DNA from: a virus
Direction: 5' to 3' (one strand)
Virus record (IMG/VR): IMGVR_UViG_3300048997_000046
Span: 1-45,533 of that record
DNA: 45,533 nt
Made by a program: the position numbers and the translations under genes. The notes under the pieces are model-generated. The model was not told the origin of the DNA and ran no database searches. It worked only from the letters and a program-made list of their open reading frames with translations. This document shows, piece after piece, positions 9,150 through 45,533 of this stretch. How positions within the stretch are numbered: the first letter of the stretch is position 1; every line of letters starts with the position of its first letter.

Positions 9150-9536
9150 GTGACGGCGCAGCTTCGCATATCCCCTGCTTACAGTATGGCCGAAGCCGCC
9201 GGGCTCTTGAGAATCAGCCGCCGGGCGTTGCAGGATTTGGTGAAGGTGCATCCGTTCTATTACCAGAACGGGAAGCGAAAGCTGTTTGCCGAGGAAGATG
9301 TATTGGCGTTGCGCACGGTCATGCGCGAGGGTGAAGAAAAATGCCGCTCAAACTTATCCCGCCGAATCTCAAAAGGCGCTGCCCGTTCTACACAGTCCGG
9401 GGAACATATCTCAGGGTCCGCGTGGACCGAAGTACTAAGACGGGCTCGCGAACGATCGCAGCCGGACTGCTCAAAGCATGGCGGGACGACATCGAACGTG
9501 AAGCCATTTCCCGGCCGGGCGAACCCACGTTCATAG
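9150..9536 (+). CDS. xis: Excisionase/MerR-like HTH protein (3' end uncertain; overlaps int by 196 nt)
   Basis: GTG start. The HTH YSMAEAAGLLRISRRALQDLV sits directly upstream of the integrase. Confidence 0.5.
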   Translation: MTAQLRISPAYSMAEAAGLLRISRRALQDLVKVHPFYYQNGKRKLFAEEDVLALRTVMREGEEKCRSNLSRRISKGAARSTQSGEHISGSAWTEVLRRARERSQPDCSKHGGTTSNVKPFPGRANPRS

Positions 9537-10357
9537 ATGCCTCTGTGGCCTATGTCTCCATGCACGGTGAACAACGGTTTCTGCCCCCGATAGTCGAAGC
9601 ACTCCGCACGACCGCCCTCAGCAAGATCGATCAGACGATGATCGATGAACTGGCCTTGCGCCTTTACCCGACAGCTTCCGCGCAAACTCGCAACCGGCAG
9701 GTCTACACCCCTGTCTCGGCCGTCCTGAAACACGCCAAGATCGAGTGGGAGCTGAAGCGGCCGAAGGGCTGGCGCGGTTCCTCCCGAACGACATGGCTGA
9801 AGCCGAACGAAGCCTTTGCTGCGATACGGGCGGCAAAGAAGGCGGATGCCGAGTTTGGGATATTCCTCACCCTGCTCTGCTACACTGGCTTGCGCCTGAG
9901 CGAAGCGCTGGGCCTTCGGTGTGAAGCCATCGAGCTGCAGGATGGCTTTGCCTACGTGCCACAGACCAAGAATGAAGACCCGCGTGCGGTATTCCTGCCG
10001 CCTGCCGTTGTGGCCGCTCTGGCAGGCCACCCGAAGGGCATGGACCGAAAGGGGCGTGTATTCCGCTTCCGCAAGAACGGGCGCCTGTACGCGCTCCTGC
10101 GGGCCACCGAGAAGGCATCCCGACAGAAACTCACCTTCCACCTGTTTCGGCATACCTGGGCCACATGGATGCGCCGCTATGGCGGACTGGACATCGATGG
10201 CCTCATGGCGACGAAGGCATGGAAAGACCCCGCGTCCGCTCGCCGGTACACCCATGTTGTGGTGAGCGAAGAGAGCCGGAAGGCTGCGCTGTTGCCGATC
10301 GACAATGGCGGACTCGACGTGAACATCAAGCGAAAGACCAAGCGCAATGCGGCTTAG
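9341..10357 (+). CDS. int: Tyrosine recombinase / phage integrase
   Basis: GLRLSEAL (Arg), HLFRHTWATW (H-x-x-R) and ARRYTHV (Tyr) motifs. It is adjacent to the tRNA-derived attP. Confidence 0.9.
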   Translation: MPLKLIPPNLKRRCPFYTVRGTYLRVRVDRSTKTGSRTIAAGLLKAWRDDIEREAISRPGEPTFIDASVAYVSMHGEQRFLPPIVEALRTTALSKIDQTMIDELALRLYPTASAQTRNRQVYTPVSAVLKHAKIEWELKRPKGWRGSSRTTWLKPNEAFAAIRAAKKADAEFGIFLTLLCYTGLRLSEALGLRCEAIELQDGFAYVPQTKNEDPRAVFLPPAVVAALAGHPKGMDRKGRVFRFRKNGRLYALLRATEKASRQKLTFHLFRHTWATWMRRYGGLDIDGLMATKAWKDPASARRYTHVVVSEESRKAALLPIDNGGLDVNIKRKTKRNAA

Positions 10358-16700: not shown

Positions 16701-17946
16701 CGAAGCCATACTGCCGTGCTGTGCCCGGCATGATCTGGTAGCGCCCGATGGCGCCGGCCGGCGAGATCGCATCATCCTTTGAGCCTTCCAGCGCACGGAC
16801 TTTGGGCAACAGGTCTTCGATGCCGGCGTTCGCCAGTGCTGGCTTCTGCTCCTTTGCCTGCCCCGGCTTCGGCGGTTCATCGGCTGCTACGCGGTTCAGG
16901 TGAGGCGTGGATGGGTTGCCCTGAACGTCCTGCGCCAGCACCTCTTGCCGGAACACCGGATCGTTCTGCGCCTTCTTCGTCGTCTCCCAAGGCGGTGTGC
17001 CTGTCCGGCGATAAATCTCCTGAAGATTGGCCTGCACACGCTTTCCGGCTTCGTTGGGCACAAACCTCTGGCCGCCCACGGCGCCGACAACCTTGCCCGC
17101 GCCATGAAAGCCCAGCATGACTGTGGCGCCGATGGCAAAATCATCAGCGTTCGGCACATGGCCTTCGAGGCCTGCGCCTACCGTCGTCGCAGCGACCGCC
17201 TGAGAGGCCATATTAGCCCCTGTGGCGAGCCACGGCTTTGCCCCTGCCGCAAGCACCTTCGACCCGACGGCCCCGCCCAGTGGCGCGGAGACAAGCCCTA
17301 CGACGCCAGCCTTCGCGGTATTGATGGTGGACTTCGTAGCCATCGCCAGAAAGTCGCTGAACGAATGAACCTCGCCGCGCTGGTAGGCGTCGATCATCAC
17401 CTCGCGGAGCGCTTGCGGGAGAGCGTTGGCGCCAAAGCCCGCGCCCGCTACGCCACCGATTGCTTCCGTCGCGCCAGTTTCGCCGCCTACGGGCACGGCA
17501 GCGCCAGCGGCAGTACCGGCACCAGCCCCGCCAACAAACCCCGCCACGGTGGCGGGAAGGTCGCCAACGGCCTGTCCCGTTGCTTCCAGCATCTTGCTGA
17601 GAAGGCCAGCACTCTGCGGCGCTACGGTGTCCGGCAGTTTACCGCGTGACGCGAGGCCGGAAACGGACATTTGCCAGCCCGCTTCCAGCATCTCCAGCGG
17701 GTTCGTCGCCTGATGGATCGCAGCATTGCCGCGGTTCATCGCATCGATCGCATGGGTACTCGGATCGCTATTCCCCCAATAGGCCTCAATCTCATGTTGA
17801 TTGAAGCCGCCAGCCTGTAGCTTTGCTGTCTGCTGCGCACGCCACTGATTTGCTTCATCCGCGGTAAAGCCGCCCGATAATAGTTTCTGATAGGCTTGCG
17901 CGCCTTGCGGAACGACGGGCTGCGGAGCAACGCCGGGGCCGCTCAC
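13753..17946 (-). CDS. Internal virion / ejection protein with an SLT lytic transglycosylase domain, 1397 aa
   Basis: EGS...AIGRYQIMPGTARQYG...AYNAGPGR motif. Size and position match podovirus internal core proteins. Confidence 0.75.
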   Translation of the reverse strand: MSGPGVAPQPVVPQGAQAYQKLLSGGFTADEANQWRAQQTAKLQAGGFNQHEIEAYWGNSDPSTHAIDAMNRGNAAIHQATNPLEMLEAGWQMSVSGLASRGKLPDTVAPQSAGLLSKMLEATGQAVGDLPATVAGFVGGAGAGTAAGAAVPVGGETGATEAIGGVAGAGFGANALPQALREVMIDAYQRGEVHSFSDFLAMATKSTINTAKAGVVGLVSAPLGGAVGSKVLAAGAKPWLATGANMASQAVAATTVGAGLEGHVPNADDFAIGATVMLGFHGAGKVVGAVGGQRFVPNEAGKRVQANLQEIYRRTGTPPWETTKKAQNDPVFRQEVLAQDVQGNPSTPHLNRVAADEPPKPGQAKEQKPALANAGIEDLLPKVRALEGSKDDAISPAGAIGRYQIMPGTARQYGFDPTKLTDPSYNETAARTILTDLYRRFRGDEDAILTAYNAGPGRAAKLLTAGPGTRLEAEQGKHGWEYARVDADRSEAGLPLETQEYLARNRSMGGGTKGPTNGSGGAGGEPPKQISGHAGGDDPFTLDTSMRVSRFKESIGEPSTAHRPALLGLEMELDAARRVDTELKTRGLLDPTTDIGIEDMARSTYASENRADHFFFRGPFDPVTFKEKEGPALKDVADEIKRIGGNQDEFNTYRVALRTIEKAKQGIDTGVFPGGAKEAEANAADPNLKKYAKANDLMQQWKNSVLTYVRDSGGISQKQMDAMIAANTSHVSLRRLMGDDQPFKSGSRKSFRAVNPIARMEGSDKKIIDPWLADIDNARMLIRFADRNRAAGAIVGAQEGIPQSPDVKRLAAPEAKATLAEPGSSVFKPYGLTDKEAKAFEPIIQQGAKGLGKQQFIFYRNGKAEVWQANDENVARLYRAADSPGEATLIDKVVQFPAKIARAGIAGDPTFGPRIALKHQLTAFIADPSHPPPFITMMRGLMDSFGKGDAFWELARTGGLSGSIVDIDRSVLTTDAQKLLEETGVTNRLWNTVRHPLELAQILTDRLAQASRIGYYKNAVGKGAEPMKAAMNARKAYLDYDEKFIANVANTWAKWVPFFKADILGLRQGKGAWAAGRALNTSLYVIMGLAVPQIGLYLANRQADKDLPAGKRYTDLPQWERDNYFITPPIAGQRFRIGKPYVIGPLVGIPLERFIEHEFENNPHAFDHIFRDMSEILPKNLPPVITPIIEGAANYSFFSGKQLIPDSLKDASGDMQYTEATTEPAKALARVLGPHGGVNLADVSPIVVDNYVRGWAGTLGIDVMKALGAPFAVHNKPWEMSDLPFVQSFFVRNPQTGSQPIETFYDDMKTLEEAHANEFLALKRGDPSIMVQDAGKARLYSTLIGMRATLGIQRTAIQAINDDAKMTVDEKRQNTDRIVGEMIGLAQAGSKMIGSTK

Positions 17947-19547: not shown

Positions 19548-20006
19548 CTAGATTCCCAATCCGAACGATCCAAGCCCACCTAAAATTTCGCCAGCGCCAC
19601 CGAGAATGCCGCCCACCTCTGCACCCGTCGCCTGATCTTCCGCAGCCTTCGATTGCGCAAGGTAGCCCTGCTGCTCGATTTCGCCTTGCAAGCCGATCAT
19701 GTTGCGTGTGATGGAGCCTTGGGCCACAGAAGATCGCATGACATCCGCCGCGCTGCCGGAAATCTTGAGTCCAGAGGAAGCAATGTCCGCGCGGCCAGCG
19801 CCGAGCGTCTGGTAAATCTGGCGGTTTGCTGCAAGTTCTTTGATGCCAGTGGAGTATTGCGTCCACTGTGCAGCTTTCTTGTAGTAAGCTGCTTCGGTCC
19901 GGTCCGCCGCCGCAGATTCAAAGCCGGCGAAGATGTCGCCAGCGCCTTTGAAGATGCTGCCTATCCCACCGAAATCATTTTCACCGGAATTGCCGAAGAT
20001 GCTCAT
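19548..20006 (-). CDS. Virion-associated protein, 152 aa, Gly-rich termini
   Basis: ATGA coupling with the upstream 1400-aa gene. Confidence 0.6.
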   Translation of the reverse strand: MSIFGNSGENDFGGIGSIFKGAGDIFAGFESAAADRTEAAYYKKAAQWTQYSTGIKELAANRQIYQTLGAGRADIASSGLKISGSAADVMRSSVAQGSITRNMIGLQGEIEQQGYLAQSKAAEDQATGAEVGGILGGAGEILGGLGSFGLGI

Positions 20007-23000
20007 TCGTCTTTCGCCTCAATAAATCCTGCAATCGCCGTCACTGTGACCGGCCACGGACGCGTCACCTCCCAACAGAGGCGGGAGTCCGTGCCATCCG
20101 TATCATCGATGCTGATATCCTTCGCCGCGACCGTTCCGGTGAACAGCGTAGGAGCTGCAAAGTCCGTCCCGTTCGGCTGCTTCAGTGGCACGGGATACAG
20201 CCGGTCGAAATCCACGCCGATGCTCAGACCAAACGATTTCACCAGCGCGATTGCAGCCTTGTGAATGCGCCGCATCTTGCCGAATGCCGGTCCTGCCTGT
20301 GCGCCTGCGTCCGGGCCGAAATCCGGCCGCAGCAACTGCCCGCGCGAGGTGTAGGTAAACCCGACGCCCCCGAAGAAATCATATTCCGTCGTTTCGGTGC
20401 TGGGAGGCAAATCACTTGCGCTGTAGATCGCCAACAGCCGCGTGGTGACGGTCGAGTGCCCGCTGAAATAGCTGCCAATCAAGGTCGGTGTCGGCCCCGT
20501 GCTGTGCGTGTAACTGCCGATGAGATAGATCGCGCCGGAATTACAGTCGAACACCTGAATGCTGTTGACGTTGATGGTCAGACCAGCATTCCATGCCGTG
20601 ATGGTTTGCGAACCATCCGACAGATCAATGGTGATGACGTTGGGCGCATCGAAAATCTGCAAGGTGCCGCTGATGAAGCAGCGCGAAAGATCGCAACCGT
20701 GCAGTCCAGAAAGGACACTGGCCCACATCACCGCGCCGGAGACGCGGTTCACCTTCACCAGATAGGCGTTGTGGGTGACGGTATCGGCAGTCTGCACCCA
20801 AAAGAGCAGGTTGCCATCCGCCGCGTCAAATCCAAGGCCTGATGCGGCTGAGGTATGACTCCATGCCGGGTCAATATCTGCGCCATGCAGCGAGCAGATG
20901 TGGCGCAAGGTCGCTTCTGGCGCCCAACCTTCATAGAGGTCAATCGGGCTTGTGGAATTGCCCGAATAGTCCGGCGCACCCATCGCGTAATAGTCGCCGC
21001 GGCCCCGCAATCCTTCGCAAACAAAAACCTGCCCATCCGTCGCAACAATATCGGAAAGCGTAACCTTTGTGACGTACACCATCACATCGGGAGTGTCGCT
21101 GTTCGACAAATCCCATACCGCGACTTCGGTACCAGCCAGCGAACCCGTGACAAGATAATTGTGCGTGCCCTTTACCACAGGCGAGAGAGTGCCGGGGCAT
21201 TGAACATTGGTCGGGCTGGAATTGAACCCGCTATTTGCGGTGCCGGTTGTGCCCAATAGCGTTTGATCGCTGAGGCGGACGCACGCCATTTTGACGCTGT
21301 TGGTAATCCCGTCGCAGGCGCCGTAATAGTTTCCATTTGGGTGAATGCACGCAGCAACAGTGTTGACGAAGATATTGGCCGGACCTACACCGAACACGGC
21401 GGAGTTGATGGCTTCCGCCACCTCATCGCCGGTCGTGTTCTTGTTGAACACCTGAATGCCGCCGGTATCGTCGCCGCCATCATCCTGCGTTTCCGCAATC
21501 AGTGCGAGCGTGGCATCGACGAACCAATTGCCTGCGCTTGTGTCGTATAGCACGGGCGTTCCAGCTGCGACAAAGGCTTCGAGTGAGCCAAGATTTGGAT
21601 TGACGACGGGCGTACTATCCGTTGTTGTCGTGCTGGTGCCGGTCAGATCGCAGGTGCCGAGATTCTGGAAATAATCCCATGTGAAGGTGCCGGAAAACGC
21701 AATGTCGATATAGCCATCCGTCACCGTAAAATCGCCAAGGTCCAGTCCGCCGATGAAAGCCGAAACCGTCTTGCCGTTCAGGTGCCAGTAGCCATAGAGA
21801 CGAATGCCAGTTGGTGTATCGCCGCCGGTGAGAATAGAGGTGTTTGCCGGAACCGCCGAGCCGTCGATGAAAAACGCATCGCAATCGTCGGAGCAATCGT
21901 CGAACTCCGGCGACAGCATTTCCACCCAGCGCACGCCAAAATCATCGTCGTCCACGTCCGGCTGATTGGTGACGGCATAGAGCGTTTCACCCAAGCCGGT
22001 ATCGGTTGGCGTGCTGCTTACAGCAATGCTTTCGAAGGTGCGACTATCGCCATGCTCATGCCGGTGCCAGCCGTTGAAGGATTCCTTGCCGTAGGCCGCG
22101 TGCCGAAACACGGAACCTACCAGCGTGCCATCGTTTCGGCGCACCCACAAATTCCATGACGGCGTTTGCTGATAGCGGATTTCCGCGACACCGCCGCAAA
22201 CCAGCGTCCCCGCCAGATGCTCCAGATTGTCGGCAAACCAGCCGGCCGCTTCACCGTAGGGATAATTCGCAATGTCGAGAATACGTCGCCCCTGCCGCTG
22301 TACGAACGCGATTGTGCGGAGACACATCTGCGGCTCGATGTCGGCGCAGCCATAAGCCGTGACGCGGCGCATCTGCATGGAGGACGGCGAAATCGGGTCG
22401 TTCAGAGCGGACGCCTGTACCAGCCACTCGCCCGCCAGCGAACCCATGAGGATTCCGTTGTCGCCCGAGAGCATCCAGAAGAACTGATTGAGTTCGGTGG
22501 CGTTGGCTGTTGCAGCGATCGCATTATCATCCGCGACCGTGCCGTCCGTGTCCGTGGGCGTGAAATCGAAATGCTTGTCGGATTTGGAGGCGTCCACGCG
22601 GTTGCTCGCCGCGCCGGAGAGCCACAAGCGGCCCTCATGGTACGTGCCGCACGCCGGATGCCCAGTCGTGTCGCTGAACGCGCCCAGCCGCCATGCGGTT
22701 GTCGCCGAGAAATCCCCCACCAGGTTCAGCCCAACGGCTGGGCTATAATCCATAGTCCGGCTATCGGACAGGCCATTGATGGTCGTCCATGAAGCGCTCT
22801 GTCCATCGACATCGGTGAACACCATCGTCGAGGTGCGGTCGTCGGGATCGTTCAGAATGCCGCGCACCGTGTAGATGCCGGAAATGTCGCCACCTGGAGG
22901 ATCTGTGAACGTGCCATTGGTGATTGCTACCTGCTGCCCAGCGGCGAAGTATTGCGTGAAGTCGATAGCCGGATACTGCGCTTGCAGGCCGGGAAAGCCG

Positions 23001-24205
23001 CCAACCGTCCACAGGGCGCGGATGTTCACATTGCCTTCGACGGCAGCGAATGCTCCGGCCCCGCGCAGATCGCTTTGGAGCGTTGCCGTGACATGCGTGG
23101 TATCGGTGACGACCGTGATTTTCAGCCAGACCCAATTCACCTTCGCGGTGGACAGCACCCAATGCGTGCCATCGTCGAGTGTTGGATCGACGCCGGTCAG
23201 CCCGCCTTGCGAAGAATAGATATTGCCGTCCGAACCTGTGACCTGATCGCCTTTGACGTACGCAGTCAGCTTGTCCCACATCTGCGGCCCGCCCTGAAAA
23301 CGAATGAGGCGGTTCACATCGGTTGCGAGAAAGCCCTGCCCGTCATTGATCGCATCGGTATCGGACGCCGTGACGGTGATGCTGCCGGTATCGCCGGAAA
23401 GCGTCAGCGTGGTTTGCGAAACCAGCGGGTCTTGGATGTCGAGATATGGCCCGTCCGTGAACTCCTGAATGGAGATCGCGAAGGGCTGCGGAGCCACACC
23501 GACCGAGAGAACGCGCGGCTCATAATCGGAATGCAGAATGAGAACGGTCGAGTCGTCACTGACAATGCGCAGGGCTTCCAGATCGTCCGGCCCGTACGGA
23601 GTCGCCAGCTCGAAAATCTTGAACACTTTGTCGAGCGTGGCGCCCGCCACATACGCAATCGTGCTGCCGTCGATGCTCGCGTCCGTAATCGGGTCCAGCA
23701 AGGTGAACGAATTGCCGGTGATCGTGCCGATGGTGAACTGGCGATTGGTGAGAATGGGCGCCGAGGATGGAATCGCCACCAGATCGAACATGATGGTGTC
23801 GCCGTCCGCCCAATTCGCCGGAATCGTATCGGCCAGAAACACAACGGCCGGCGTAGCAGTCGAAATACCGGAGACATGAATATCGCCGTCCGCCACCCGA
23901 ACGAGGGACCCGCCTTGGCGAAGCCGGATCGTGCCGTCATCTTCGCCCGTGCCGCCGGTGAACTCCGCGACATACGGCGCATCAATCTGGAAATCGAAGG
24001 TGCGGAGAACCGCAAAGCGGCCCTTCTTGGTGTGCTGCGCGTATACGAAACCGCTGCGCCGCGTCCACGGACCTTCCTCAGTCGGATAGGCGTTCAGGCA
24101 TTCGGAGAGCGCGGTTTTCCATGCAGGGTCCGTCATCCGGCCTTGCGATGCCGGGGACCAAAAGCCGCCGAGAAACGAGCTTTGGAGAAAGGCGGTGTTC
24201 GCCAT
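20003..24205 (-). CDS. Large tail structural protein, tail tubular B-like N-terminus, 1400 aa
   Basis: The N-terminus FLQSSFLGGFWSPASQGR...TRRSGF resembles podoviral tubular protein B starts. It follows the adaptor-like gene. Confidence 0.55.
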   Translation of the reverse strand: MANTAFLQSSFLGGFWSPASQGRMTDPAWKTALSECLNAYPTEEGPWTRRSGFVYAQHTKKGRFAVLRTFDFQIDAPYVAEFTGGTGEDDGTIRLRQGGSLVRVADGDIHVSGISTATPAVVFLADTIPANWADGDTIMFDLVAIPSSAPILTNRQFTIGTITGNSFTLLDPITDASIDGSTIAYVAGATLDKVFKIFELATPYGPDDLEALRIVSDDSTVLILHSDYEPRVLSVGVAPQPFAISIQEFTDGPYLDIQDPLVSQTTLTLSGDTGSITVTASDTDAINDGQGFLATDVNRLIRFQGGPQMWDKLTAYVKGDQVTGSDGNIYSSQGGLTGVDPTLDDGTHWVLSTAKVNWVWLKITVVTDTTHVTATLQSDLRGAGAFAAVEGNVNIRALWTVGGFPGLQAQYPAIDFTQYFAAGQQVAITNGTFTDPPGGDISGIYTVRGILNDPDDRTSTMVFTDVDGQSASWTTINGLSDSRTMDYSPAVGLNLVGDFSATTAWRLGAFSDTTGHPACGTYHEGRLWLSGAASNRVDASKSDKHFDFTPTDTDGTVADDNAIAATANATELNQFFWMLSGDNGILMGSLAGEWLVQASALNDPISPSSMQMRRVTAYGCADIEPQMCLRTIAFVQRQGRRILDIANYPYGEAAGWFADNLEHLAGTLVCGGVAEIRYQQTPSWNLWVRRNDGTLVGSVFRHAAYGKESFNGWHRHEHGDSRTFESIAVSSTPTDTGLGETLYAVTNQPDVDDDDFGVRWVEMLSPEFDDCSDDCDAFFIDGSAVPANTSILTGGDTPTGIRLYGYWHLNGKTVSAFIGGLDLGDFTVTDGYIDIAFSGTFTWDYFQNLGTCDLTGTSTTTTDSTPVVNPNLGSLEAFVAAGTPVLYDTSAGNWFVDATLALIAETQDDGGDDTGGIQVFNKNTTGDEVAEAINSAVFGVGPANIFVNTVAACIHPNGNYYGACDGITNSVKMACVRLSDQTLLGTTGTANSGFNSSPTNVQCPGTLSPVVKGTHNYLVTGSLAGTEVAVWDLSNSDTPDVMVYVTKVTLSDIVATDGQVFVCEGLRGRGDYYAMGAPDYSGNSTSPIDLYEGWAPEATLRHICSLHGADIDPAWSHTSAASGLGFDAADGNLLFWVQTADTVTHNAYLVKVNRVSGAVMWASVLSGLHGCDLSRCFISGTLQIFDAPNVITIDLSDGSQTITAWNAGLTINVNSIQVFDCNSGAIYLIGSYTHSTGPTPTLIGSYFSGHSTVTTRLLAIYSASDLPPSTETTEYDFFGGVGFTYTSRGQLLRPDFGPDAGAQAGPAFGKMRRIHKAAIALVKSFGLSIGVDFDRLYPVPLKQPNGTDFAAPTLFTGTVAAKDISIDDTDGTDSRLCWEVTRPWPVTVTAIAGFIEAKDE

Positions 24206-31397: not shown

Positions 31398-32882
31398 TCA
31401 GATGCCCCAGTGCTCGCCTTCCACGCCCTGCGCAATCCGCACAGGTGCGTTTGAGGTAGAGCTATAGCCCCTCGCACCGCTCACCCTGGCAAACCGCTTT
31501 GCCATGACGCCGATGCGGGAAGCGGACATGAGGTCGTCCTGCAGCTTCACGATCATGCCGTCCTTGCGGTGGTAAATCCGGAATTCCTCCCACCAGTCCT
31601 TCAAATGCCGCGCGACTTTGAACCGCCCCGTCGTCATGCGGTCGTACATCTCCTGCACGCCCGCTTCGGTGGAGATCGAGCCATCCGGCCACGTCGCGTG
31701 GCCCGGCAGCATCTTCAATCCCTCTTCTTTGTAGAAGCGGGCGAGAGGTGTTCCTGAACCAGCATCGCGATTGGTGCCATCTCGCGGCCACGCCACCGGA
31801 ATATCCGTGCCGTAGCCCTTCATGGCCTTGGCGTGGTCTATCGGCCGCGCATCGCGCATTCGAAAGCCGTGGAGGATATGCAGGCAGTCGGCGTCCTTGT
31901 CCCACGCATACAGCACGGCAGCGAACGGATGCCCGATGCCAAAGTCTATCGCCCAAAGCTTCGGCCAGTAGCCGGGAGGGCTGAACGCATCCTCTGCAAT
32001 CGCTTCCTCCGGAACGGGGAATATCCGGCCGGAGCCAAGCATGGGCACGCCCCGGGACCGCGCTTCGCGTTCATGGGCAGGATAGCCAGCAATGATGCGC
32101 TGGCGCTCCGCCGCGCCACCCGGGAAGTGGGTATCGGGAACATCGTCAATGGTCATCGTGACCATGCCGCGGTCATCGCTGGGCTCGTTCATAAAGCGGC
32201 CAACGACCGCACTCATGCCTTTCATTGGCGTGAGCGTCAGAAACCCGAAACCACCGGTGGCCGTGATGCGCGTTAGCATCTCTCCGTAAATGTCCATCGG
32301 CGGTTCTTCGTCGCCCCAAAACCAATCCAGCGTCTCACCCTGGAACTTGGTCCGCCCCTGCTCATAGGATTTGAAGCGTGCGACCGAGATTCCGCCCGAC
32401 ACATGGCGGACCTGAATGGTGTCGTAGGCATCGGTAATGCCGCGAGCGAGAGAGGGCTTGTCGGTAAAGCATTCCTTCGGGATCATGCCAGTGCCGAAGG
32501 CGGATTCCACCCCGGGTTCACCACAGAGCTTCTTTTGCTGCACGTCCCGGGCCAGCGATGACGTTTCGCCAACGACCCAGCCGCGATTCGGTTTATCCAG
32601 TTTGCGCCCCTGCCAGTTTGGCGGGTACATCCCGGTCATGTGGCAGGCGACCGTGAAAGCACCGGTTTCCGTTTTTCCCAATTGATTGCCGGCGAGAAAC
32701 AGCGTCTCGCGCATTTTGGCAGTGAGGGCGATGAATTCTTGTTGCTTGGGATAGGGTTCGAAGAAATCGAGGACGCGGAATTTCCGGCGCCGCTCTATCT
32801 CCTTCAGGATTTTGCGAAGCTCGCGTTCCTTGGCCGGGTCCATTTCCGGCTTAGAGGAAGCGTCAGCTTTTTTGGGTGGCAT
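31398..32882 (-). CDS. terL: Terminase large subunit
   Basis: Walker A LAGNQLGKTETG. 494 aa, upstream of the portal. Confidence 0.85.
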   Translation of the reverse strand: MPPKKADASSKPEMDPAKERELRKILKEIERRRKFRVLDFFEPYPKQQEFIALTAKMRETLFLAGNQLGKTETGAFTVACHMTGMYPPNWQGRKLDKPNRGWVVGETSSLARDVQQKKLCGEPGVESAFGTGMIPKECFTDKPSLARGITDAYDTIQVRHVSGGISVARFKSYEQGRTKFQGETLDWFWGDEEPPMDIYGEMLTRITATGGFGFLTLTPMKGMSAVVGRFMNEPSDDRGMVTMTIDDVPDTHFPGGAAERQRIIAGYPAHEREARSRGVPMLGSGRIFPVPEEAIAEDAFSPPGYWPKLWAIDFGIGHPFAAVLYAWDKDADCLHILHGFRMRDARPIDHAKAMKGYGTDIPVAWPRDGTNRDAGSGTPLARFYKEEGLKMLPGHATWPDGSISTEAGVQEMYDRMTTGRFKVARHLKDWWEEFRIYHRKDGMIVKLQDDLMSASRIGVMAKRFARVSGARGYSSTSNAPVRIAQGVEGEHWGI

Positions 32883-33164
32883 CTAGAAACCGGTCTGCCA
32901 GTCGCCGCAGTTCGGGCAGTAGTAACCGGCGCTGGTGACGTGGAAGAGAGAATTTCCGCAGTTGCAGTGCCAGTGCGGCCTCTTTTCATAGAGGCACTTA
33001 AACCGCATCAAGCCCTTTTCGGCTTTGCAATTCGGGCATTCCAGCCAGACCGCCCCGGCGGGCGCAACGCTCACCCAAACGTGCAGGCAAGCAAGACAGT
33101 GTGCCTCGCCGGTAATGTGAGGCACCTCCGGTTCTTTCGGCTTGAACGCCAGAACCTCAGCCAT
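32883..33164 (-). CDS. Zinc-ribbon protein, 93 aa, with four CxxC-type pairs
   Basis: CLAC, CPNC, CNC and CPNC motifs. Wedged between TerS (8-nt overlap) and TerL (abutting). Confidence 0.6.
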   Translation of the reverse strand: MAEVLAFKPKEPEVPHITGEAHCLACLHVWVSVAPAGAVWLECPNCKAEKGLMRFKCLYEKRPHWHCNCGNSLFHVTSAGYYCPNCGDWQTGF

Positions 33165-33651
33165 CGGCGCTCACCACCTCGCCCTCTATCACCGGCAAGG
33201 ATGGAACCGCCATCGGTCCCATCAACTGCTTCACCGCGGCCAGCAAATCCGCCGTGCTGCGGTTGTCCTCATGCTGAACCCGAATGTCCTGCGTGGTCTT
33301 CCGCCCATACCCGGTCCGGTCGAGCACACTGTCGATTGCCGACGCCTTCACCTTGACGTCAGTGCTGCGGATCAGGTCTTCCATCTCGAGGATCGCCACA
33401 ACCGCCAGCCCATCCAGCCGCCTGTCCGCTTCCTCCCGCAGAGCCGCCAATATCCCGGGATGCCGCAGGAACTCGCAGGCCGTAATCCGAGCCCGGTCCT
33501 CTGAATACCCCGCAGCCCGCGCCACACGCGCCGCATTGACCCCGCGCACCCCAACCCAGCCAACGACGAACTTCCGCTGCATCGGGTTCAGAGCCAACAT
33601 GCACGGCCCCAAATTATCGACAGGAACCTCGGCAATCGGCTCGTCTTCCAT
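33157..33651 (-). CDS. terS: Terminase small subunit
   Basis: The N-terminal HTH-like NPMQRKFVVGWVG..NAARVARAAGYS is typical of TerS. Located just upstream of TerL. Confidence 0.7.
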   Translation of the reverse strand: MEDEPIAEVPVDNLGPCMLALNPMQRKFVVGWVGVRGVNAARVARAAGYSEDRARITACEFLRHPGILAALREEADRRLDGLAVVAILEMEDLIRSTDVKVKASAIDSVLDRTGYGRKTTQDIRVQHEDNRSTADLLAAVKQLMGPMAVPSLPVIEGEVVSADG

Positions 33652-33876: not shown

Positions 33877-33982
33877 TGACGCAGGCGTCACGCTGTTACG
33901 GCAGGGGGTGGATAGAACAGGTCATGTGCTGGTAATGTGGTGACCTAATACCGCACATGGATAAGCCTGACGTAGCGTCAGG
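33877..33982. promoter_or_regulatory. Two related palindromes, TGACGC-AG-GCGTCA and CCTGACG-TAG-CGTCAGG
   Basis: Read directly at 33877..33890 and 33966..33982, in the 327-bp noncoding leader before terS. Confidence 0.35.
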
Positions 33983-34148
33983 AGGTGGGATCAGGTTTGC
34001 TTGGCGGGATGGCTGCGAGCTGCGCCTTCGCCTCTGGCGTGATGAGGCCCTTTTCATCAAGGATGGCGAGCATCTTGTCGATGAAGGGTTCGAGGATGCG
34101 CTCGTGCGCGTTCATGGTCTGAGTGTAGCGCCCACAAGCGGATTTCAT
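33978..34148 (-). CDS. Small protein, 56 aa (MKSACGRYTQTMNAHERILEPFIDKML...); below the ORF-track cutoff
   Basis: Verified codon by codon. GGAGGGGG lies 7 nt upstream of the ATG. Third positions are strongly G/C, as in the other genes. Confidence 0.55.
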   Translation of the reverse strand: MKSACGRYTQTMNAHERILEPFIDKMLAILDEKGLITPEAKAQLAAIPPSKPDPTS

Positions 34149-34467
34149 CAAGCCCCCTCCGTTGGTTCCCCCTGTATATCACATTTCGAGTGCCGAAGGA
34201 TCGATGCAACGCACCTCAATCGTGACGGGGCGTCATGTTTGTTCAATACCACGCAGTATCTGGCGGAGGGCCGGAACGTCCAGCAGAAGAATACCACAAT
34301 TTGGACAACATAAAGCAGGGATCGCTGGAGGTAATCGGCCCGCTGCCGTGGCAGGGTAATCCGGGCCAGCAAGACTCACTTTATCAATGCCAGCTTCTGT
34401 CATCGTCAAATGCGCTCCCATGAATTGCTGCGGGCGGGGCGCTACTCCCGCTAGGCCGTCGCCTTTC

Positions 34468-34535
34468 AATTTGGGCCGGATTCGAACCAGCAACCTCCGC
34501 CTCAGGACGGCACTCTACCATTGAGCTACCAATGA
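34468..34535 (-). tRNA. tRNA-like element / degenerate tRNA (canonical D- and T-arms, 4-nt anticodon loop, imperfect acceptor stem)
   Basis: Minus strand: TCATTGG TA GCTC-AATGGTA-GAGT G CCGTC-CTGA-GGCGG AGGTT GCTGG-TTCGAAT-CCGGC CCAAATT. Only 4 of 7 acceptor pairs form. Confidence 0.45.
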
Positions 34536-34591
34536 CCGTGTCTGCTTTCCACGCCGCCGCAGCACGCAAACAATAGCACACAAATCAGGGC

Positions 34592-34620
34592 TTGACAGCG
34601 TGATTGCTGTTGCCTAAATT
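34592..34620 (+). promoter_or_regulatory. Near-consensus sigma70-type promoter, TTGACA-17 nt-TAAATT
   Basis: -35 at 34592..34597 and -10 at 34615..34620, about 70 nt upstream of ATG 34692. The palindrome TTGCC-N8-GGCAA (34610..34627) overlaps the -10. Confidence 0.55.
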
Positions 34621-34691
34621 GCGGCAAGTGGTGAGCTGATGTTGAAGCACCAGCCCACCTGTCACACGGCGAAAACTTGGAGGTCCACGCC

Positions 34692-34886
34692 ATGCAACAG
34701 TATCAGGATACATGCACATTCGAGGTTCAGGCAACGCCACGTTTGGCTTACCAGGATGCTCTCTTGCGGGGGAGATTGTCGTTCGATCCGCAGTCACCCA
34801 AGTGGCAAGGCCATTGGTACTATGCGGGGCAACAGGATGGCCGGCCGCAGTTCCGATCGCTCCATGATGGGGAGCTACTGCCGTGA
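34692..34886 (+). CDS. Hypothetical protein, 64 aa
   Basis: ATG 34692 lies 8 nt after GGAGG. GTGA coupling to the next gene. Confidence 0.5.
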   Translation: MQQYQDTCTFEVQATPRLAYQDALLRGRLSFDPQSPKWQGHWYYAGQQDGRPQFRSLHDGELLP

Positions 34887-35149
34887 GCCACACACCTGCT
34901 CCATGGCGATACGAGCACACCACGAAGACCGTCCGCAGCGTTCCGGCGAACTACTGGCTCGCCACGATGGATAGCTGGGATGGTGCTGTCGATCATCGGG
35001 CTAATGCCAACCTCATCGCTGCATCGCCAGATTTGCTCGCCGCTGCTCAAACACTAGTGCGGCGCATCGAGCGGGACAACCTGCACACAACGCATGGTGT
35101 CCAGCTTGAGCCTTTACGTGCTGCAATCGCCAAGGCGGAGGGCCAGTGA
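34883..35149 (+). CDS. Conserved phage protein with PAPW...ANANLIAASPDLLAAA motif (paralogue of 385..750)
   Basis: GTG start overlapping the upstream TGA. Motif shared with the first copy. Confidence 0.6.
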   Translation: MSHTPAPWRYEHTTKTVRSVPANYWLATMDSWDGAVDHRANANLIAASPDLLAAAQTLVRRIERDNLHTTHGVQLEPLRAAIAKAEGQ

Positions 35150-35364
35150 AGCACGATTTACACACCGTGGGAGAGGCGCTGTTCGGTAATCAGTGGCGGT
35201 GTCCTCTCGCACGGGCTTTGGGAGTCAGTGAACGCACGATGCGATACTGGGCGGCGGGACAGTTCACGGATGCTATTCCGTGGGATGAGATCGCTGCCCT
35301 TTGTCGTGTGCGGGATTTGGCGCTTACGACACTGGCGAAGCAACTCACGCGGCTTTCCGAGTAA
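35146..35364 (+). CDS. HTH DNA-binding protein, 72 aa
   Basis: HTH LARALGVSERTMRYWAAG. GTGA coupling. Confidence 0.6.
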   Translation: MKHDLHTVGEALFGNQWRCPLARALGVSERTMRYWAAGQFTDAIPWDEIAALCRVRDLALTTLAKQLTRLSE

Positions 35365-35848
35365 CCAACCCAGCCGCTTCGGCCATTTCCTTCAATGCGG
35401 TTGATTTGGCAAACTCGCGGGCGCTCAGATTGTCGTCGTTGATGCGCCAGCGGCTTTCAACCGCTTCAATGAACGTGACCCAGCCGGAGAACAGGCGCTT
35501 GAGGCTGTTGTATTCGTAGTGCGGCACGTCCGCGAACAAGCGACCATCCGGCAGGCGCAATTCCTCGAAGAAATTGGATATGGCCTTGATAGTGCCACGA
35601 CAGCCGCGCTGCCCTATTTCGCGCACGATAGTCTGTACCGCAGCATTTCGGGATGCGCGCGCCTCAGGTGTTTTGCGTGCCTTGTCGTCCAAGAATCGGC
35701 GGCCTGTCGCGTGGCACCATTCGCTGAAAATGGTATCGCGGTACTCGCCCATCTGCCGCACAAGGTCTGCACCCAGCATGTCCGCAGTCTGGTATGGGCT
35801 CGCAGCACAAATCTCATGCGCCCGCCGGTGAGCGTTCATGTCATCCAT
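35345..35848 (-). CDS. Hypothetical protein, 167 aa (last gene of the early-right operon)
   Basis: ORF track. Its 3' end overlaps the convergent gene 35146..35364 by 20 nt. Confidence 0.6.
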   Translation of the reverse strand: MDDMNAHRRAHEICAASPYQTADMLGADLVRQMGEYRDTIFSEWCHATGRRFLDDKARKTPEARASRNAAVQTIVREIGQRGCRGTIKAISNFFEELRLPDGRLFADVPHYEYNSLKRLFSGWVTFIEAVESRWRINDDNLSAREFAKSTALKEMAEAAGLVTRKAA

Positions 35849-36253: not shown

Positions 36254-36652
36254 TCACGCCGCCTCCAGTGCCGCAGCAATAGCCGTAGGCTGCGGCGTTT
36301 CCTCTTTCGGCCATGAGAACGGGCGCATTGGTTTCGGCCAATGCCGTTCTTCCCAAAAGTCCGTAGCGACCACGATCTTACCCATCTTGCGGACGCGCTC
36401 GAATAGCACGGAAGCGCGATCCACCTCATCCTGAGTCGGAACGCGATCGCCCTTTTCCGTGTTGCAGTGATTGCAGGCTAGCACGATATTGCGCGTGGAT
36501 TGTCCGCCTGCCCGCTTCGGCCAAAGATGGTCCTTGCTCCATTGGCTGGGACGGCGACCACGGCCCTGTCGCGGCGGCCCGCTGAATTCATGCCCGCAAT
36601 AGAAGCAGCGGCCGTCTTGGCAGGCACAGAGAATGGCAACGAGCGTGGTCAC
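36254..36652 (-). CDS. HNH endonuclease (2 of 3)
   Basis: CFYCGHEF...KDHLWP...NIVLACNHCNTEKGD. GTGA coupling. Confidence 0.75.
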   Translation of the reverse strand: MTTLVAILCACQDGRCFYCGHEFSGPPRQGRGRRPSQWSKDHLWPKRAGGQSTRNIVLACNHCNTEKGDRVPTQDEVDRASVLFERVRKMGKIVVATDFWEERHWPKPMRPFSWPKEETPQPTAIAAALEAA

Positions 36653-42367: not shown

Positions 42368-42600
42368 GCGGCGGCTTGTTGTTTTTGGTTAGGAATGTGA
42401 GCCGGTTTGGGGGGCGCGTAGCCACGAATGAAGGCGCGAACTTTATCAACGGTGGCGAGCGTCAGCCCTCCGCCTTCCCGTAACCGTGTCACAAATTTTC
42501 CGTCGTTCACGGCCAATCGGCCGAACGTGGATTCGGTCATTTGCACTTCACGGCGCGCAAGGAACGCCTCGATCTCAACGAGAAGTTCTTGTGTGGTCAT
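42364..42600 (-). CDS. cro: Cro-like early regulator
   Basis: Divergent from the repressor across the operator region. First gene after the TTGACA-17-CATATT promoter. Confidence 0.6.
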   Translation of the reverse strand: MTTQELLVEIEAFLARREVQMTESTFGRLAVNDGKFVTRLREGGGLTLATVDKVRAFIRGYAPPKPAHIPNQKQQAAA

Positions 42601-42607
42601 GCTGGCG

Positions 42608-42684
42608 AATATGATGGGCTATTGCCCAAGTGTCAATGGGCTATTGCCCAAGTGACTATCATGCTTCCAGTGGGCAATGTCCCA
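42608..42684. promoter_or_regulatory. Immunity operator/promoter region: three operators plus a rightward (minus-strand) promoter
   Basis: TGGGCTATTGCCCA at 42615..42628 and 42637..42650 (22-bp phasing), and the variant TGGGCAATGTCCCA at 42671..42684. Minus-strand -35 TTGACA at 42631..42636 and -10 CATATT at 42608..42613. Confidence 0.7.
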
Positions 42685-42687
42685 CTC

Positions 42688-43368
42688 ATGAAACTCGACT
42701 GGCGAGAGCGGCTCAAAAGGGCGATTGAGCGGAAACAAACGACCATGAAGGCGCTGTCTAAGGGTGCCGGATTGGGCGAAACCTACGTTCGGGACATTCT
42801 TGAGCGGGACCGTGATCCGTCTGTGGAAAATGCAAAGCGGCTCTGCGCCACCCTCAATACTTCATATGAATCGATCTTCGGCGAGGGGCCGCTAGAAGAT
42901 CAGATGCCCCCTATGCGCGGGAACATCTTTGAATTTGGTGGTATCGAATACGCGCGAATCCCAGTCTATGACATCAGGTTTGCGGCCGGCACCGGAAATG
43001 TGGAGGAAGGCGATGAAGAACCCATTGACCATTATCTGGTCAGCATGAACACCCTTCGCGCTGCAACGGACGCCCCGCTAACGCAGCTAGCAATTTTTCA
43101 AGCCCACGGCGATTCCATGAAGGAGACTATCAACGGCGGGGATTGGGTTTTCGTGGATCGCCGGAAAACTAATCTCCGAATCCCTGGAATCTATGCCCTG
43201 ACCGTAGACGGCGAGAGGCTCCTGAAGCGTGGTCACCAGCATCTTGAAACCGGCGTTGTGACCTTGATTTCGGACAACACGGCCTATGAGCCGCGACGGC
43301 AAACAATTAAGCACCCAGAAAGGCTTAACATCATCGGCCGCGTCTTTTTGTCAATCCGGCGCCATTAG
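42688..43368 (+). CDS. cI: CI-like repressor (XRE HTH + S24 LexA-type autopeptidase)
   Basis: HTH MKALSKGAGLGETYVRDIL, Ser motif HGDSM and Lys motif LLKRG. An alternative start is 42661. No Shine-Dalgarno before either start. Confidence 0.85.
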   Translation: MKLDWRERLKRAIERKQTTMKALSKGAGLGETYVRDILERDRDPSVENAKRLCATLNTSYESIFGEGPLEDQMPPMRGNIFEFGGIEYARIPVYDIRFAAGTGNVEEGDEEPIDHYLVSMNTLRAATDAPLTQLAIFQAHGDSMKETINGGDWVFVDRRKTNLRIPGIYALTVDGERLLKRGHQHLETGVVTLISDNTAYEPRRQTIKHPERLNIIGRVFLSIRRH

Positions 43369-45001: not shown

Positions 45002-45523
45002 ATGAACGAGCGACCCAAGGTAATCCAGTTTACGGGTTCTGCGCCGCGCAATGACCATCGCTGGACTACTGATGAGCTAAAGCAACTCATCTCCATGTGG
45101 ATGGCTGGCGACGAAGTTGACAACATCGCAGTTGTATTCGGCGTCACACCGCGAGGCATCAACCGCCAGATTCAGCGGATGCGTGCCAACGGTATTTTGG
45201 TCCCGCGTCGTAAGCGTGGCCACCGCGCCGGTCGCAGCAACCAGCTTTGGACTCCAGAAGAGGTTGAATACCTCGTTCGTCGCCGGAACGAGCGCGCGTC
45301 CACCGAAGAAATCGCAAACGAACTCAACCGAACATTCAATGCCATTCAGGGCATGGTTGAAAGGCTCAAAGCAGAGGGCGTGATCGTTCGCTCATTTGGA
45401 CGCGGGAAGCATCGGCTCTGGAACGCCGAGCGGCTTCGCGACGCGATCTCTTTGCGCGGACTTAGCGACAAGGCTGAAACCGATCCATCGCGGCTTCTAA
45501 GCAATACCGGCGAAACACCATAG
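45002..45523 (+). CDS. GcrA/Myb-like DNA-binding protein with two tandem W-x-x-E-E...HTH repeats
   Basis: WTTDELKQLISMWMAGDEVDNIAVVFGVTPRGINRQIQRM and WTPEEVEYLVRRRNERASTEEIANELNRTFNAIQGMVERL resemble the GcrA N-terminal domain. Confidence 0.5.
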   Translation: MNERPKVIQFTGSAPRNDHRWTTDELKQLISMWMAGDEVDNIAVVFGVTPRGINRQIQRMRANGILVPRRKRGHRAGRSNQLWTPEEVEYLVRRRNERASTEEIANELNRTFNAIQGMVERLKAEGVIVRSFGRGKHRLWNAERLRDAISLRGLSDKAETDPSRLLSNTGETP

Positions 45524-45533
45524 CAGCCTAAGG
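45407..45533 (+). repeat. Terminal direct repeat, copy 2 (identical to 1..127)
   Basis: Base-for-base identity with 1..127. Confidence 0.97.

What the first reader, a model, noticed from the sequence alone, without database searches (positions are those of the whole stretch)
34468..34535. tRNA-shaped element that cannot decode: canonical D- and T-arms, a 4-nt anticodon loop and a broken acceptor stem
On the minus strand the sequence folds as follows. D-arm: GCTC-AATGGTA-GAGT. A 5-bp stem CCGTC/GGCGG closed by only CTGA. Then a normal 5-nt variable loop AGGTT and the T-arm GCTGG-TTCGAAT-CCGGC. The acceptor pairs at only 4 of 7 positions unless two bulges are allowed, and no CCA is encoded. The element is 68 nt and lies in AT-richer noncoding DNA at the head of the late operon. 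It may be a decayed tRNA gene. The intact elbow (D/T loops) with a deleted anticodon loop also fits a tRNA mimic. Candidates are a decoy for anticodon nucleases or tRNA-binding defence sensors, or a YrlA-type Y-RNA module, which in bacteria is genetically linked to RtcB. The phage carries RtcB, though not adjacent.
Basis: partly seen in the sequence, partly recalled or inferred. Interest (0 to 1): 0.7.

Follow-up and report, generated by a model that had tools for sequence, protein, structure and literature searches.

The report
Orphan non-decoding tRNA remnant in phage
A complete temperate phage genome carries one stretch that is clearly derived from a tRNA but has lost its anticodon and the end of its acceptor stem; no related phage has it, so it is most likely a dead tRNA remnant rather than a new kind of RNA.

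Summary
On the minus strand at 34468-34535 there is a real tRNA-derived sequence: Rfam tRNA scores 41.2 bits (curated cut-off 29) and is the only RNA-family hit in the window. The D-arm, T-arm, 5-nt variable loop and every elbow/core nucleotide are canonical. The 5-bp anticodon stem is closed by only 4 nt (CUGA), the acceptor pairs at 4 of 7 positions, and no CCA is encoded. ARAGORN rejects it, and it cannot decode.

The YrlA/Y-RNA idea fails. YrlA has a permuted arm order, the window has no Ro60/TROVE protein and no Ro-binding motif, and RtcB lies about 25 kb away beside the integrase. The element has no orthologue and no identifiable parent tRNA. It shows no excess folding stability, no significant promoter and no terminator.

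Non-decoding tRNA-like genes do recur in phage contigs. About 1% of ARAGORN calls in the sampled phage tRNA regions have odd loops. The short-arm cases I could test are singletons, or one-off derivatives of normal tRNAs.

Best reading: a lineage-specific tRNA remnant in the accessory-gene hotspot upstream of the terminase genes (about 0.55). A functional tRNA-core mimic is not excluded (about 0.28).

The parts
34468..34535 (-). The whole tRNA-derived element, 68 nt, corresponding to tRNA positions 1-72 with a 3-nt shortfall in the anticodon loop
   Evidence: Read directly. The Rfam tRNA hit covers 34471-34532 at 41.2 bits.
34529..34535 (-). 5' acceptor strand TCATTGG. Only the inner 4 nt pair with the 3' strand.
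   Evidence: acceptor 4/7. The Rfam alignment starts at model position 4.
34512..34526 (-). D-arm GCTC-AATGGTA-GAGT (4 bp including G10-U25; A14, G18, G19 and A21 present)
34497..34510 (-). Anticodon-arm remnant: CCGTC / GGCGG stem (5 bp, one U-G) closed by the 4-nt loop CTGA (34502-34505). No anticodon is possible.
   Evidence: the middle segment folds as .(((((....)))))....., -6.4 kcal/mol
34492..34496 (-). Variable loop AGGTT (A44, G46 and U48, the Levitt partner of A15)
   Evidence: plus established tRNA numbering
34475..34491 (-). T-arm GCTGG-TTCGAAT-CCGGC (5 bp; canonical T54 T55 C56 R57 A58 loop; G53-C61)
   Evidence: the only exact GGTTCGAATCC in the window
34468..34474 (-). 3' acceptor strand CCAAATT, followed by GAAAGG (no CCA)
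34149..34691 (.). 543-nt gap in which neither public gene caller places a gene. It lies between the first small late-strand gene (33978-34151, -) and the + strand module (34692-35364). The element sits in the middle.
   Evidence: Gene calls on L090, ORF list, GC 56.4%
34592..34620 (+). Sigma-70-like promoter TTGACA-17-TAAATT. It points away from the element and serves the + strand genes at 34692-35364.
   Evidence: 10 of 12 matches
34570..34598 (-). Best promoter-like site on the element's own strand (CTGTCA-17-TATTGT with TG extension), 35 nt upstream. Not significant.
   Evidence: 8 of 12 matches; 154 of 500 shuffles do as well

Best explanation
The element is a tRNA gene remnant (a pseudo-tRNA) specific to this phage lineage. 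It keeps the body of a type-I tRNA, but both business ends are disabled: the anticodon loop is reduced to 4 nt, and the outer three acceptor pairs and the CCA are absent. It cannot be charged and used in translation. It lies in the variable, ORFan-rich stretch between the early/HNH genes and the terminase genes, a place where related phages carry unrelated accessory DNA. Most likely it arrived there by recombination and has no dedicated function. If read-through transcription of the late strand crosses it, the intact elbow could still be bound or cut by tRNA-processing enzymes as a side effect. Shown: tRNA ancestry, inability to decode, absence from relatives, no parent tRNA found in the strict, exact-match searches that were possible, and lack of expression signals. 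Inferred: that it is inert.
For: (1) It is tRNA-derived beyond chance: 41.2 bits, and the only Rfam hit in the window. (2) It has two independent disabling lesions, a 4-nt loop and a 4/7 acceptor with no CCA, and ARAGORN rejects it. (3) It is not conserved. Nine loci from relatives sharing TerS (50-68% identity) and TerL have no tRNA or tRNA-like hit, by Rfam at gathering score, by Rfam at E <= 10 in two of the equivalent gaps (L009 and L012), by ARAGORN and by a T-arm motif search. Three of these loci (L008, L011, L214) reach less than 400 nt upstream of TerS. Their intergenic DNA does not align with the window. (4) The neighbourhood is unique: the flanking 64-aa gene has no homologue among 5.8 billion proteins, and the small ORFs have no PHROG. 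(5) No parent or sibling was found: 0 hits in 185,579 species genomes for the same arms with any loop of 4-9 nt, 0 hits in viral contigs for its anticodon arm, and the best deposited phage or plasmid tRNAs are only about 80% identical. (6) No expression signals: no significant promoter on its strand, no terminator, and folding no better than shuffles (z = +1.17 and +0.88). (7) Base rate: defective-loop tRNA-likes are a regular minority in phage DNA, 6 of 624 ARAGORN calls in 80 phage loci. The short-arm examples I could test are singletons or a one-off derivative of a normal tRNA-Ile (L007 against L039/L046/L066).
Against: The decay is oddly selective. All elbow and core nucleotides (U8, A14, A15:U48, G18, G19, A21, G26:A44, G46, G53:C61, T54-A58, C56) and all 14 non-acceptor stem pairs are intact. 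Three of those pairs are G-U and none is a mismatch. The damage is confined to the two functional tips. Random point decay heavy enough to break three acceptor pairs would be expected to hit the body too. Several other phage elements have the same design with near-perfect stems (L007, L023, L024, L026, L067) or a UUCG cap (L078), and L007 shows compensatory T-stem changes relative to its orthologues. A recent origin through two indels (-3 in the loop, +2 in the acceptor 3' strand) would explain the intact body without selection, but that cannot be verified without an ancestor.
Confidence: 0.55

Rival explanations
1. The element is a functional 'anticodon-less' tRNA-core mimic. It is transcribed with, or just ahead of, the packaging/late genes, and its intact L-shaped elbow is recognised by tRNA-binding machinery. 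It would act either as an RNase P / RNase Z processing handle that defines the 5' end of the late mRNA, or as a sponge for a host factor or defence sensor that reads the tRNA elbow rather than the anticodon.
For: The tRNA body and all tertiary-contact nucleotides are intact while both decoding ends are removed. It is on the same strand as, and directly upstream of, the late genes. Elements of the same design recur in other phage contigs with near-perfect stems and stable caps (4-nt loops in L007, L023, L024, L026; UUCG in L078; GCAA in the L035 family, which is followed by a terminator). L007 sits in a conserved promoter-plus-tRNA cassette and shows compensatory T-stem changes. A distant relative (L045, TerL 38% identical) also has a 41-bit tRNA-like element with a broken acceptor in the accessory stretch upstream of its terminase. 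Precedents from my own knowledge: RNase P matures the P1/P7 C4 RNA, and mascRNA and the MHV68 vtRNAs are tRNA-like processing modules.
Against: There is no orthologue, so no covariation or conservation can be shown for this element. It has no significant promoter or terminator and no excess stability. A 4-bp acceptor is a poor RNase P substrate: PMC4201824 attributes the lack of RNase P cleavage of Salmonella YrlA to its short acceptor. Known tRNA-targeting defence nucleases read the anticodon loop or the acceptor/CCA end (established knowledge), and both are missing. The class members tested are singletons, and the only orthologous set shows the short arm as a minority derivative. The pattern searches required exact D- and T-loops, which biases the class towards undecayed copies.
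Confidence: 0.28
2. The element acts at the DNA level as a recombination site: a tRNA-like attachment or crossover site (an attP-type core, a secondary site for a satellite or another integrase, or a module-exchange hotspot), not as an RNA.
For: tRNA genes are the classic targets of tyrosine integrases, and phage genomes often carry partial tRNA copies at att sites (established knowledge). The element sits at a boundary where relatives carry unrelated DNA. The phage is temperate, with an integrase and a CI-like repressor.
Against: The integrase is 24 kb away on a 45.4-kb circle. attP cores carry the 3' part of a tRNA, not a D-arm plus a shortened anticodon arm. A 4-nt spacer between the inverted stem arms is too short for a 6-8-bp overlap region. 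No tRNA combining this D-loop, anticodon stem, variable loop and T-loop (with a loop of 4-9 nt) exists in 185,579 species genomes (the acceptor strands were not part of the pattern, and a host tRNA sharing only the 3' half was not searched for). A tRNA matching the 3' acceptor strand would have to begin AAUUUGG, which is very unusual. No flanking direct repeats were found.
Confidence: 0.07
3. The element is a YrlA/Yrn-type Y-RNA module that works with Ro60 and RtcB.
For: It resembles a tRNA without a usable anticodon, and the phage encodes RtcB. D. radiodurans Yrn1 has the normal arm order with a 5-bp 'anticodon' stem and a short loop (PMC4201824).
Against: The YrlA arm order (T-AS-D) is not met. 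None of the larger predicted proteins tested has a TROVE/Ro60 domain. No GNCGAAN0-1G motif lies within 100 nt. There is no significant long terminal stem. No Rfam hit other than tRNA appears at E <= 10. RtcB is about 25 kb away and next to the integrase, not in an rsr-yrl-rtc arrangement.
Confidence: 0.02

Closest known systems
Phage-encoded tRNA genes and their defective copies (ARAGORN 'tRNA-???', tRNAscan-SE pseudo/undetermined calls)
   Same: It is clearly homologous to type-I tRNAs (Rfam RF00005, 41.2 bits). It has a compact AAUGGUA D-loop and a UUCGAAU T-loop like many phage tRNAs. Defective-loop copies make up about 1% of calls in the sampled phage tRNA regions.
   Different: It is the only tRNA-like sequence in this genome, and it is not in a tRNA cluster. 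Its relatives carry no tRNAs at all. The loop is cut to 4 nt, shorter than the 6- or 8-nt loops ARAGORN tolerates, and the acceptor is also truncated.
YrlA / Yrn1 bacterial Y RNAs (Chen et al. 2014, PMC4201824)
   Same: A tRNA-like D/T elbow with Levitt-pair potential and no decoding function. Some are phage-encoded, and they are genetically linked to RtcB in Salmonella.
   Different: YrlA is circularly permuted with a closed acceptor hairpin. It lies next to Ro60 and carries a Ro-binding stem and motif. None of these features is present here.
tRNA-like processing modules (mascRNA of MALAT1, MHV68 vtRNAs, RNase P-processed C4 RNA of P1/P7), recalled from my own knowledge and not tested
   Same: A cloverleaf or elbow retained with a reduced or non-functional anticodon arm. 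The element sits within or ahead of a longer transcript.
   Different: Those have a full acceptor stem that RNase P/Z can use, and they have documented transcripts. Here the acceptor has 4 bp and no transcript data exist.
tRNA-fragment attP cores of temperate phages
   Same: A partial tRNA sequence in a temperate phage genome.
   Different: It is not next to the integrase. It includes the 5' half (D-arm). No host tRNA with these arms was found.

Membership tests
Functional (decoding) tRNA | Cloverleaf homology above the curated Rfam threshold | tested here: met
   RF00005 41.2 bits against 29
Functional (decoding) tRNA | 7-nt anticodon loop with U33 and a 3-nt anticodon | tested here: not met
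   The loop is CUGA, 4 nt. ARAGORN makes no call.
Functional (decoding) tRNA | 7-bp acceptor stem with a discriminator and an encoded or addable CCA end | tested here: not met
   4 of 7 pairs. 7 bp is reached only with a 2-nt bulge, which is not above chance. The element is followed by GAAAGG.
Functional (decoding) tRNA | Conserved elbow/core tertiary nucleotides (U8, A14, R15:Y48, G18, G19, A21, G53:C61, T54, T55, C56, A58) | tested here: met
   All are present in the sequence. The numbering follows established tRNA convention.
tRNA pseudogene / remnant | tRNA homology plus lesions that abolish function | tested here: met
tRNA pseudogene / remnant | No conservation of the lesioned form in relatives | tested here: met
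   It is absent from nine relatives' loci. No homologue was found in the viral, metagenome or genome pattern scans.
tRNA pseudogene / remnant | Not expressed as a stable RNA | not testable with these tools
   Only indirect evidence: no significant promoter or terminator.
YrlA-type Y RNA | Permuted order T-arm, acceptor hairpin, D-arm, with the RNA ends at the anticodon-stem position | tested here: not met
   The order here is D, anticodon, variable, T. The definition comes from PMC4201824.
YrlA-type Y RNA | Encoded next to a Ro60/Rsr (TROVE) gene | tested here: not met
   No TROVE domain in any of the 30 ORFs scanned against Pfam, which include the large ORFs.
YrlA-type Y RNA | Ro-binding stem with the GNCGAAN0-1G motif | tested here: not met
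   No motif within 34380-34640 on either strand. The extended fold has z = +0.88.
tmRNA (tRNA-like domain) | Acceptor plus T-arm with a tag-coding region, detectable by ARAGORN or Rfam | tested here: not met
   ARAGORN finds 0 tmRNA. Rfam keeps only the best-scoring family of the tRNA clan for a given stretch (tRNA here), and no tmRNA-type match appears anywhere else in the window at E <= 1.
attP tRNA-fragment core | Adjacent to the integrase and identical to the 3' part of a host tRNA gene | tested here: not met
   The integrase is 24 kb away. No other T-arm motif lies near it. No tRNA with the same D-loop, anticodon stem, variable loop and T-loop was found in the genome collection. That pattern was strict, and a host tRNA sharing only the 3' half was not searched for.

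The most novel reading that the evidence does not exclude
The element belongs to a scattered, independently arising set of phage-encoded 'anticodon-less' tRNA-core mimics. These would be tRNA bodies whose anticodon loop is replaced by a 3-5-nt cap (CUGA here; CAUC, AUAA, GGAU, UCCA, UUCG and GCAA elsewhere). They would be kept because the exposed elbow engages host tRNA-handling or tRNA-sensing machinery, either for transcript processing at the head of the late operon or for titrating an elbow-reading defence factor, possibly alongside the phage's RtcB-based tRNA repair.
Probability: 0.2. Interest if true: 0.65.

Novelty: new member of a known kind. Interest (0 to 1): 0.3.

Why it matters
If the element is only a remnant, it is a routine annotation note: a pseudo-tRNA that ARAGORN misses and the Rfam tRNA model reports, so it should not be counted as a phage tRNA. 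It also marks the stretch upstream of the terminase genes as a recombination-prone accessory hotspot in this BPP-1-like phage group. If it were expressed and functional, it would add a phage example of a tRNA body used for something other than decoding, in a phage that also carries the tRNA ligase RtcB. That would bear on the current question of how phages cope with tRNA-targeting defences. The evidence here does not reach that point.

Tried and rejected
- **Orthologue comparison.** TerS homologues led to nine related loci. None has a tRNA-like sequence, and only coding DNA aligns. No covariation test is therefore possible for this element.
- **Exact-protein look-ups of flanking genes.** These returned only a 100% identical contig. 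The flanking 64-aa gene is an ORFan. The TerS-based scan of viral contigs found nothing.
- **Parent tRNA.** A strict pattern in genomes gave 0 hits. blastn against phages and plasmids gave only generic tRNAs at about 80% identity. The phi16 hit is an ordinary, unannotated tRNA-Trp.
- **Y-RNA reading.** Rejected, as set out in the membership table.
- **attP reading.** Rejected on position, content and the lack of a matching host tRNA.
- **Long enclosing stem (GCUGCGG 34563-34557 with CCGCAGC 34433-34427).** It appears in the centroid fold, but it is no more than expected by chance (my estimate), and the fold has z = +0.88.
- **Complement of the T-arm 3' strand about 100 nt downstream (34358-34368).** This is one of 24 similar chance inverted repeats in 1.8 kb.
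- **Orthologue searches for the L078 and L067 short-arm elements.** They found only the elements themselves.
- **Literature.** Four searches found no description of tetraloop-capped phage tRNA-likes. Two papers on phage tRNAs, searched by term only, do not mention them.

Full report
**What is there.** The window is a complete circular phage genome. Its first and last 127 bases are identical, which gives a 45,406-bp circle. The phage is temperate, with a tyrosine integrase (9341-10357, +) and a CI-like HTH-S24 repressor (42541-43368, +). RtcB (7802-9112, +) lies just upstream of the integrase. The packaging and structural genes run on the minus strand: TerS 33157-33651, TerL 31398-32882, then portal, Bbp19-like and capsid genes. 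An HNH endonuclease lies at 36254-36652.

The finding sits on the minus strand in a 543-nt stretch (34149-34691) where neither public gene caller places a gene. A small late-strand ORF (33978-34151, -) lies on one side. A three-gene + strand module (34692-35364) with its own sigma-70-like promoter at 34592-34620 lies on the other.

Read 5'->3' on the minus strand, the element is TCATTGG-TA-GCTC-AATGGTA-GAGT-G-CCGTC-CTGA-GGCGG-AGGTT-GCTGG-TTCGAAT-CCGGC-CCAAATT.
- The Rfam tRNA model matches 34471-34532 at 41.2 bits (gathering score 29, E = 1.9e-5), covering model positions 4-67.
- It is the only RNA-family hit in the whole window, even at E <= 1.
- The D-stem (4/4), anticodon stem (5/5) and T-stem (5/5) are fully paired, each with one G-U pair.
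- The nucleotides that build the tRNA elbow and core are all present: U8, A14, A15:U48, G18, G19, A21, G26:A44, G46, G53:C61, T54-A58 and C56.
- Two things are missing. The anticodon loop has 4 nt instead of 7, and the outer three acceptor pairs do not form (4/7). No CCA follows.
- ARAGORN calls no tRNA or tmRNA.
- A 2-nt bulge in the 3' strand would restore a 7-bp acceptor, but extra pairing of that kind is expected by chance about one time in three (my estimate).
- The sequence is identical in a second assembly, which may derive from the same sample.

**No relatives carry it.**
- TerS homologues led to nine loci from related phages with TerS 50-68% and TerL 65-75% identical.
- The relatives whose loci reach far enough upstream have a similar layout, with one or more 400-900-nt uncalled gaps between the early genes and TerS. 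Three loci (L008, L011, L214) stop less than 400 nt upstream of TerS.
- None has a tRNA or tRNA-like sequence. This holds for Rfam at gathering score, Rfam at E <= 10 in the equivalent gaps of L009 and L012, ARAGORN and a T-arm motif search.
- Only coding DNA aligns between these loci and the window.
- The 64-aa gene next to the element has no homologue among 5.8 billion proteins.
Nor is there any conservation of the element.

**No parent tRNA.** A pattern requiring the same D-loop, anticodon stem, variable loop and T-loop, with any loop of 4-9 nt, found nothing in one genome from each of 185,579 species. The element's anticodon arm has no exact match in viral contigs. The best deposited phage and plasmid tRNAs are about 80% identical over roughly 60 nt.

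**No expression or stability signal.**
- The element alone and a 161-nt extended region fold no better than shuffled sequence (z = +1.17 and +0.88).
- The best promoter-like site on its strand scores 8 of 12, and 31% of shuffles match that.
- No terminator follows.

**The Y-RNA idea fails as a membership claim.**
- YrlA is a permuted tRNA mimic: T-arm, closed acceptor hairpin, D-arm, with the RNA ends leaving through the anticodon-stem position. It is encoded next to Ro60 and carries a Ro-binding motif (PMC4201824).
- Here the arm order is the normal tRNA order.
- None of the larger predicted proteins tested has a TROVE domain.
- No GNCGAAN0-1G motif lies nearby.
- No Rfam family other than tRNA matches at E <= 10.
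- RtcB is about 25 kb away.

**The attP idea also fails.** The integrase is 24 kb away. The element includes the tRNA 5' half. The spacer between the inverted stem arms is only 4 nt. No host tRNA with these arms was found.

**Similar things elsewhere.** I searched for AATGGTAGAG and GGTTCGAATCC separated by 24 nt instead of the usual 26-28.
- The search found 7 stretches in viral contigs, 20 in metagenome contigs and 5 in 185,579 genomes.
- Several have the window's exact design, with near-perfect stems: position 26, a 5-bp stem, a 4-nt loop and a 5-nt variable loop. Acceptor pairing, counted by script or, for L023, by eye with a one-base shift in register, is L007 7/7, L026 7/7, L024 6/7, L023 6/7 and L031 6/7.
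- A wider spacing scan added L067 (3-nt cap), L078 (6-bp stem with a UUCG cap) and one gut-phage lineage (9 contigs) with a 3-bp stem and a GCAA cap, followed by a terminator.
- This is suggestive, but three points temper it. The patterns demand exact D- and T-loops, which selects undecayed copies. The only orthologous set shows the short arm as the odd one out: L007's relatives L039, L046 and L066 share its acceptor, D-arm and promoter but are ordinary tRNA-Ile(AAU), although L007's T-stem has compensatory changes. L078 and L067 have no orthologues at all.
- As a base rate, 6 of 624 ARAGORN calls in 80 phage tRNA regions not selected for any anticodon-arm defect have abnormal loops.
- A distant relative of the window phage (L045, TerL 38% identical) carries a 41-bit tRNA-like element with a poorly paired acceptor (5 of 7 by the script, 2 of 7 contiguous by eye). 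It lies in an accessory stretch (Fic/DOC, Lar-like) upstream of its terminase. This fits the idea that the position is a dumping ground for accessory DNA.

**Weighing.**
- Against function: uniqueness, the lack of expression signals, two independent disabling lesions and the base rate.
- Against plain decay: the damage is confined to the two functional tips, the body is flawless, and three G-U pairs occur with no mismatch. Point decay able to break three consecutive acceptor pairs should also have hit the body.
- Two recent indels (-3 in the loop, +2 in the acceptor 3' strand) would reconcile an intact body with neutrality, but this cannot be checked without an ancestor.
- I put about 0.55 on an inert, lineage-specific tRNA remnant and about 0.28 on a functional tRNA-core mimic. 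Within the mimic reading, a processing handle is more plausible than a decoy, because the parts that known anticodon nucleases and acceptor-end toxins read are the parts that are missing. I put about 0.07 on a DNA-level recombination site, about 0.02 on a Y RNA, and the remainder on other or chance explanations.

**Novelty and interest.** This is a new member of a known kind: a defective or non-decoding tRNA-like sequence in a phage. It is worth an annotation note. If anyone has the phage or its transcriptome, a single northern blot would be informative. On present evidence it is not a new system.

Noticed in passing
window 1-127 and 45407-45533: An exact 127-bp direct terminal repeat. The contig is a complete circular genome of 45,406 bp, not a prophage with host flanks.
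   Followed up: yes
window 7802-10357: RtcB (436 aa, Pfam E = 1e-124) lies immediately upstream of, and on the same strand as, the tyrosine integrase. This is a lysogeny-module or moron position rather than the replication or late modules. No tRNA-like or other Rfam hit lies nearby.
   Followed up: partly
window 34592-35364: A three-gene + strand module is embedded among minus-strand genes. It comprises an ORFan of 64 aa, an 88-aa Phage_P22_Y8K6/phrog_1273 protein and a 72-aa protein whose relatives are YdaS/Cro-like. It has a 10-of-12 sigma-70-like promoter, and its 3' end overlaps the convergent gene 35345-35848 by 20 nt. The 72-aa gene is conserved in relatives; the other two are not.
   Followed up: partly
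L007 1622-1690; L039 8173-8246; L046 313-386; L066: Gut-phage contigs share a conserved promoter-plus-tRNA cassette in otherwise unrelated flanks. Three carry tRNA-Ile(AAU). L007 has the same acceptor and D-arm, but the whole anticodon arm is swapped for CCUCA-CAUC-UGAGG, and the T-stem has three compensatory pair changes.
   Followed up: partly
L035 670-735 and eight further loci (L047, L048, L052, L060, L061, L065, L075, L082): A tRNA-like element with a mini anticodon arm (3 bp plus a GCAA tetraloop) and no acceptor pairing. An upstream hairpin precedes it and a rho-independent terminator follows it. It is identical in 9 viral contigs, including two whose flanks differ by about 5%. It may be the 3' part of a larger unknown ncRNA.
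   Followed up: partly
L016 ~1330-1400, L033 ~370-440, L085 ~230-300: Rumen/gut family of tRNA-like genes that lack nucleotide 26 and have a 6-nt loop AUUUUA and a 4-nt variable loop AGAU. The acceptor, anticodon and T stems all differ between the three copies but stay paired. This looks like a conserved non-standard tRNA.
   Followed up: no
L015, L018 (two copies: 372-416 and 4397-4441), L014, L025: Soil contigs carry a tRNA-Gly-like gene with an encoded CCA but a 6-nt loop CUCCAA, no nucleotide 26 and one T-stem mismatch. It is present twice within 4 kb in L018.
   Followed up: no
L087 7072-7116 (Terracidiphilus MAG), L030, L019: Acidobacterial sequences with a canonical T-arm and a 5-bp hairpin capped by a GNRA tetraloop (GAAA or GAGA), but no D-stem or acceptor pairing and no Rfam hit. 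Their 5' flanks are conserved (GGTGGCGCAG...CGGATACTTC). An unidentified structured RNA.
   Followed up: no
L045 11549-11618 (-): A distant relative of the window phage (TerL 38%, 93-aa protein 47% identical) has a 41-bit tRNA-like element that ARAGORN rejects. Its acceptor is poorly paired (5 of 7 by the script, 2 of 7 contiguous by eye), and position 33 is G. It lies upstream of a Fic/DOC-domain gene and two Lar-like genes, ahead of TerS and TerL.
   Followed up: partly
L089 2500-2573 (Corynebacterium phage phi16, KY250482.1 55782-55855): The deposited record has no annotation for a cluster of five ARAGORN tRNA calls (Tyr, an 8-nt-loop '???', Trp, Asn, Arg) between ORF98 and ORF99.
   Followed up: partly
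window 13753-17946 and 20003-24205: Two very large minus-strand ORFs (1397 and 1400 aa). The first carries SLT transglycosylase and LPD38 domains. The second has no Pfam match.
   Followed up: no
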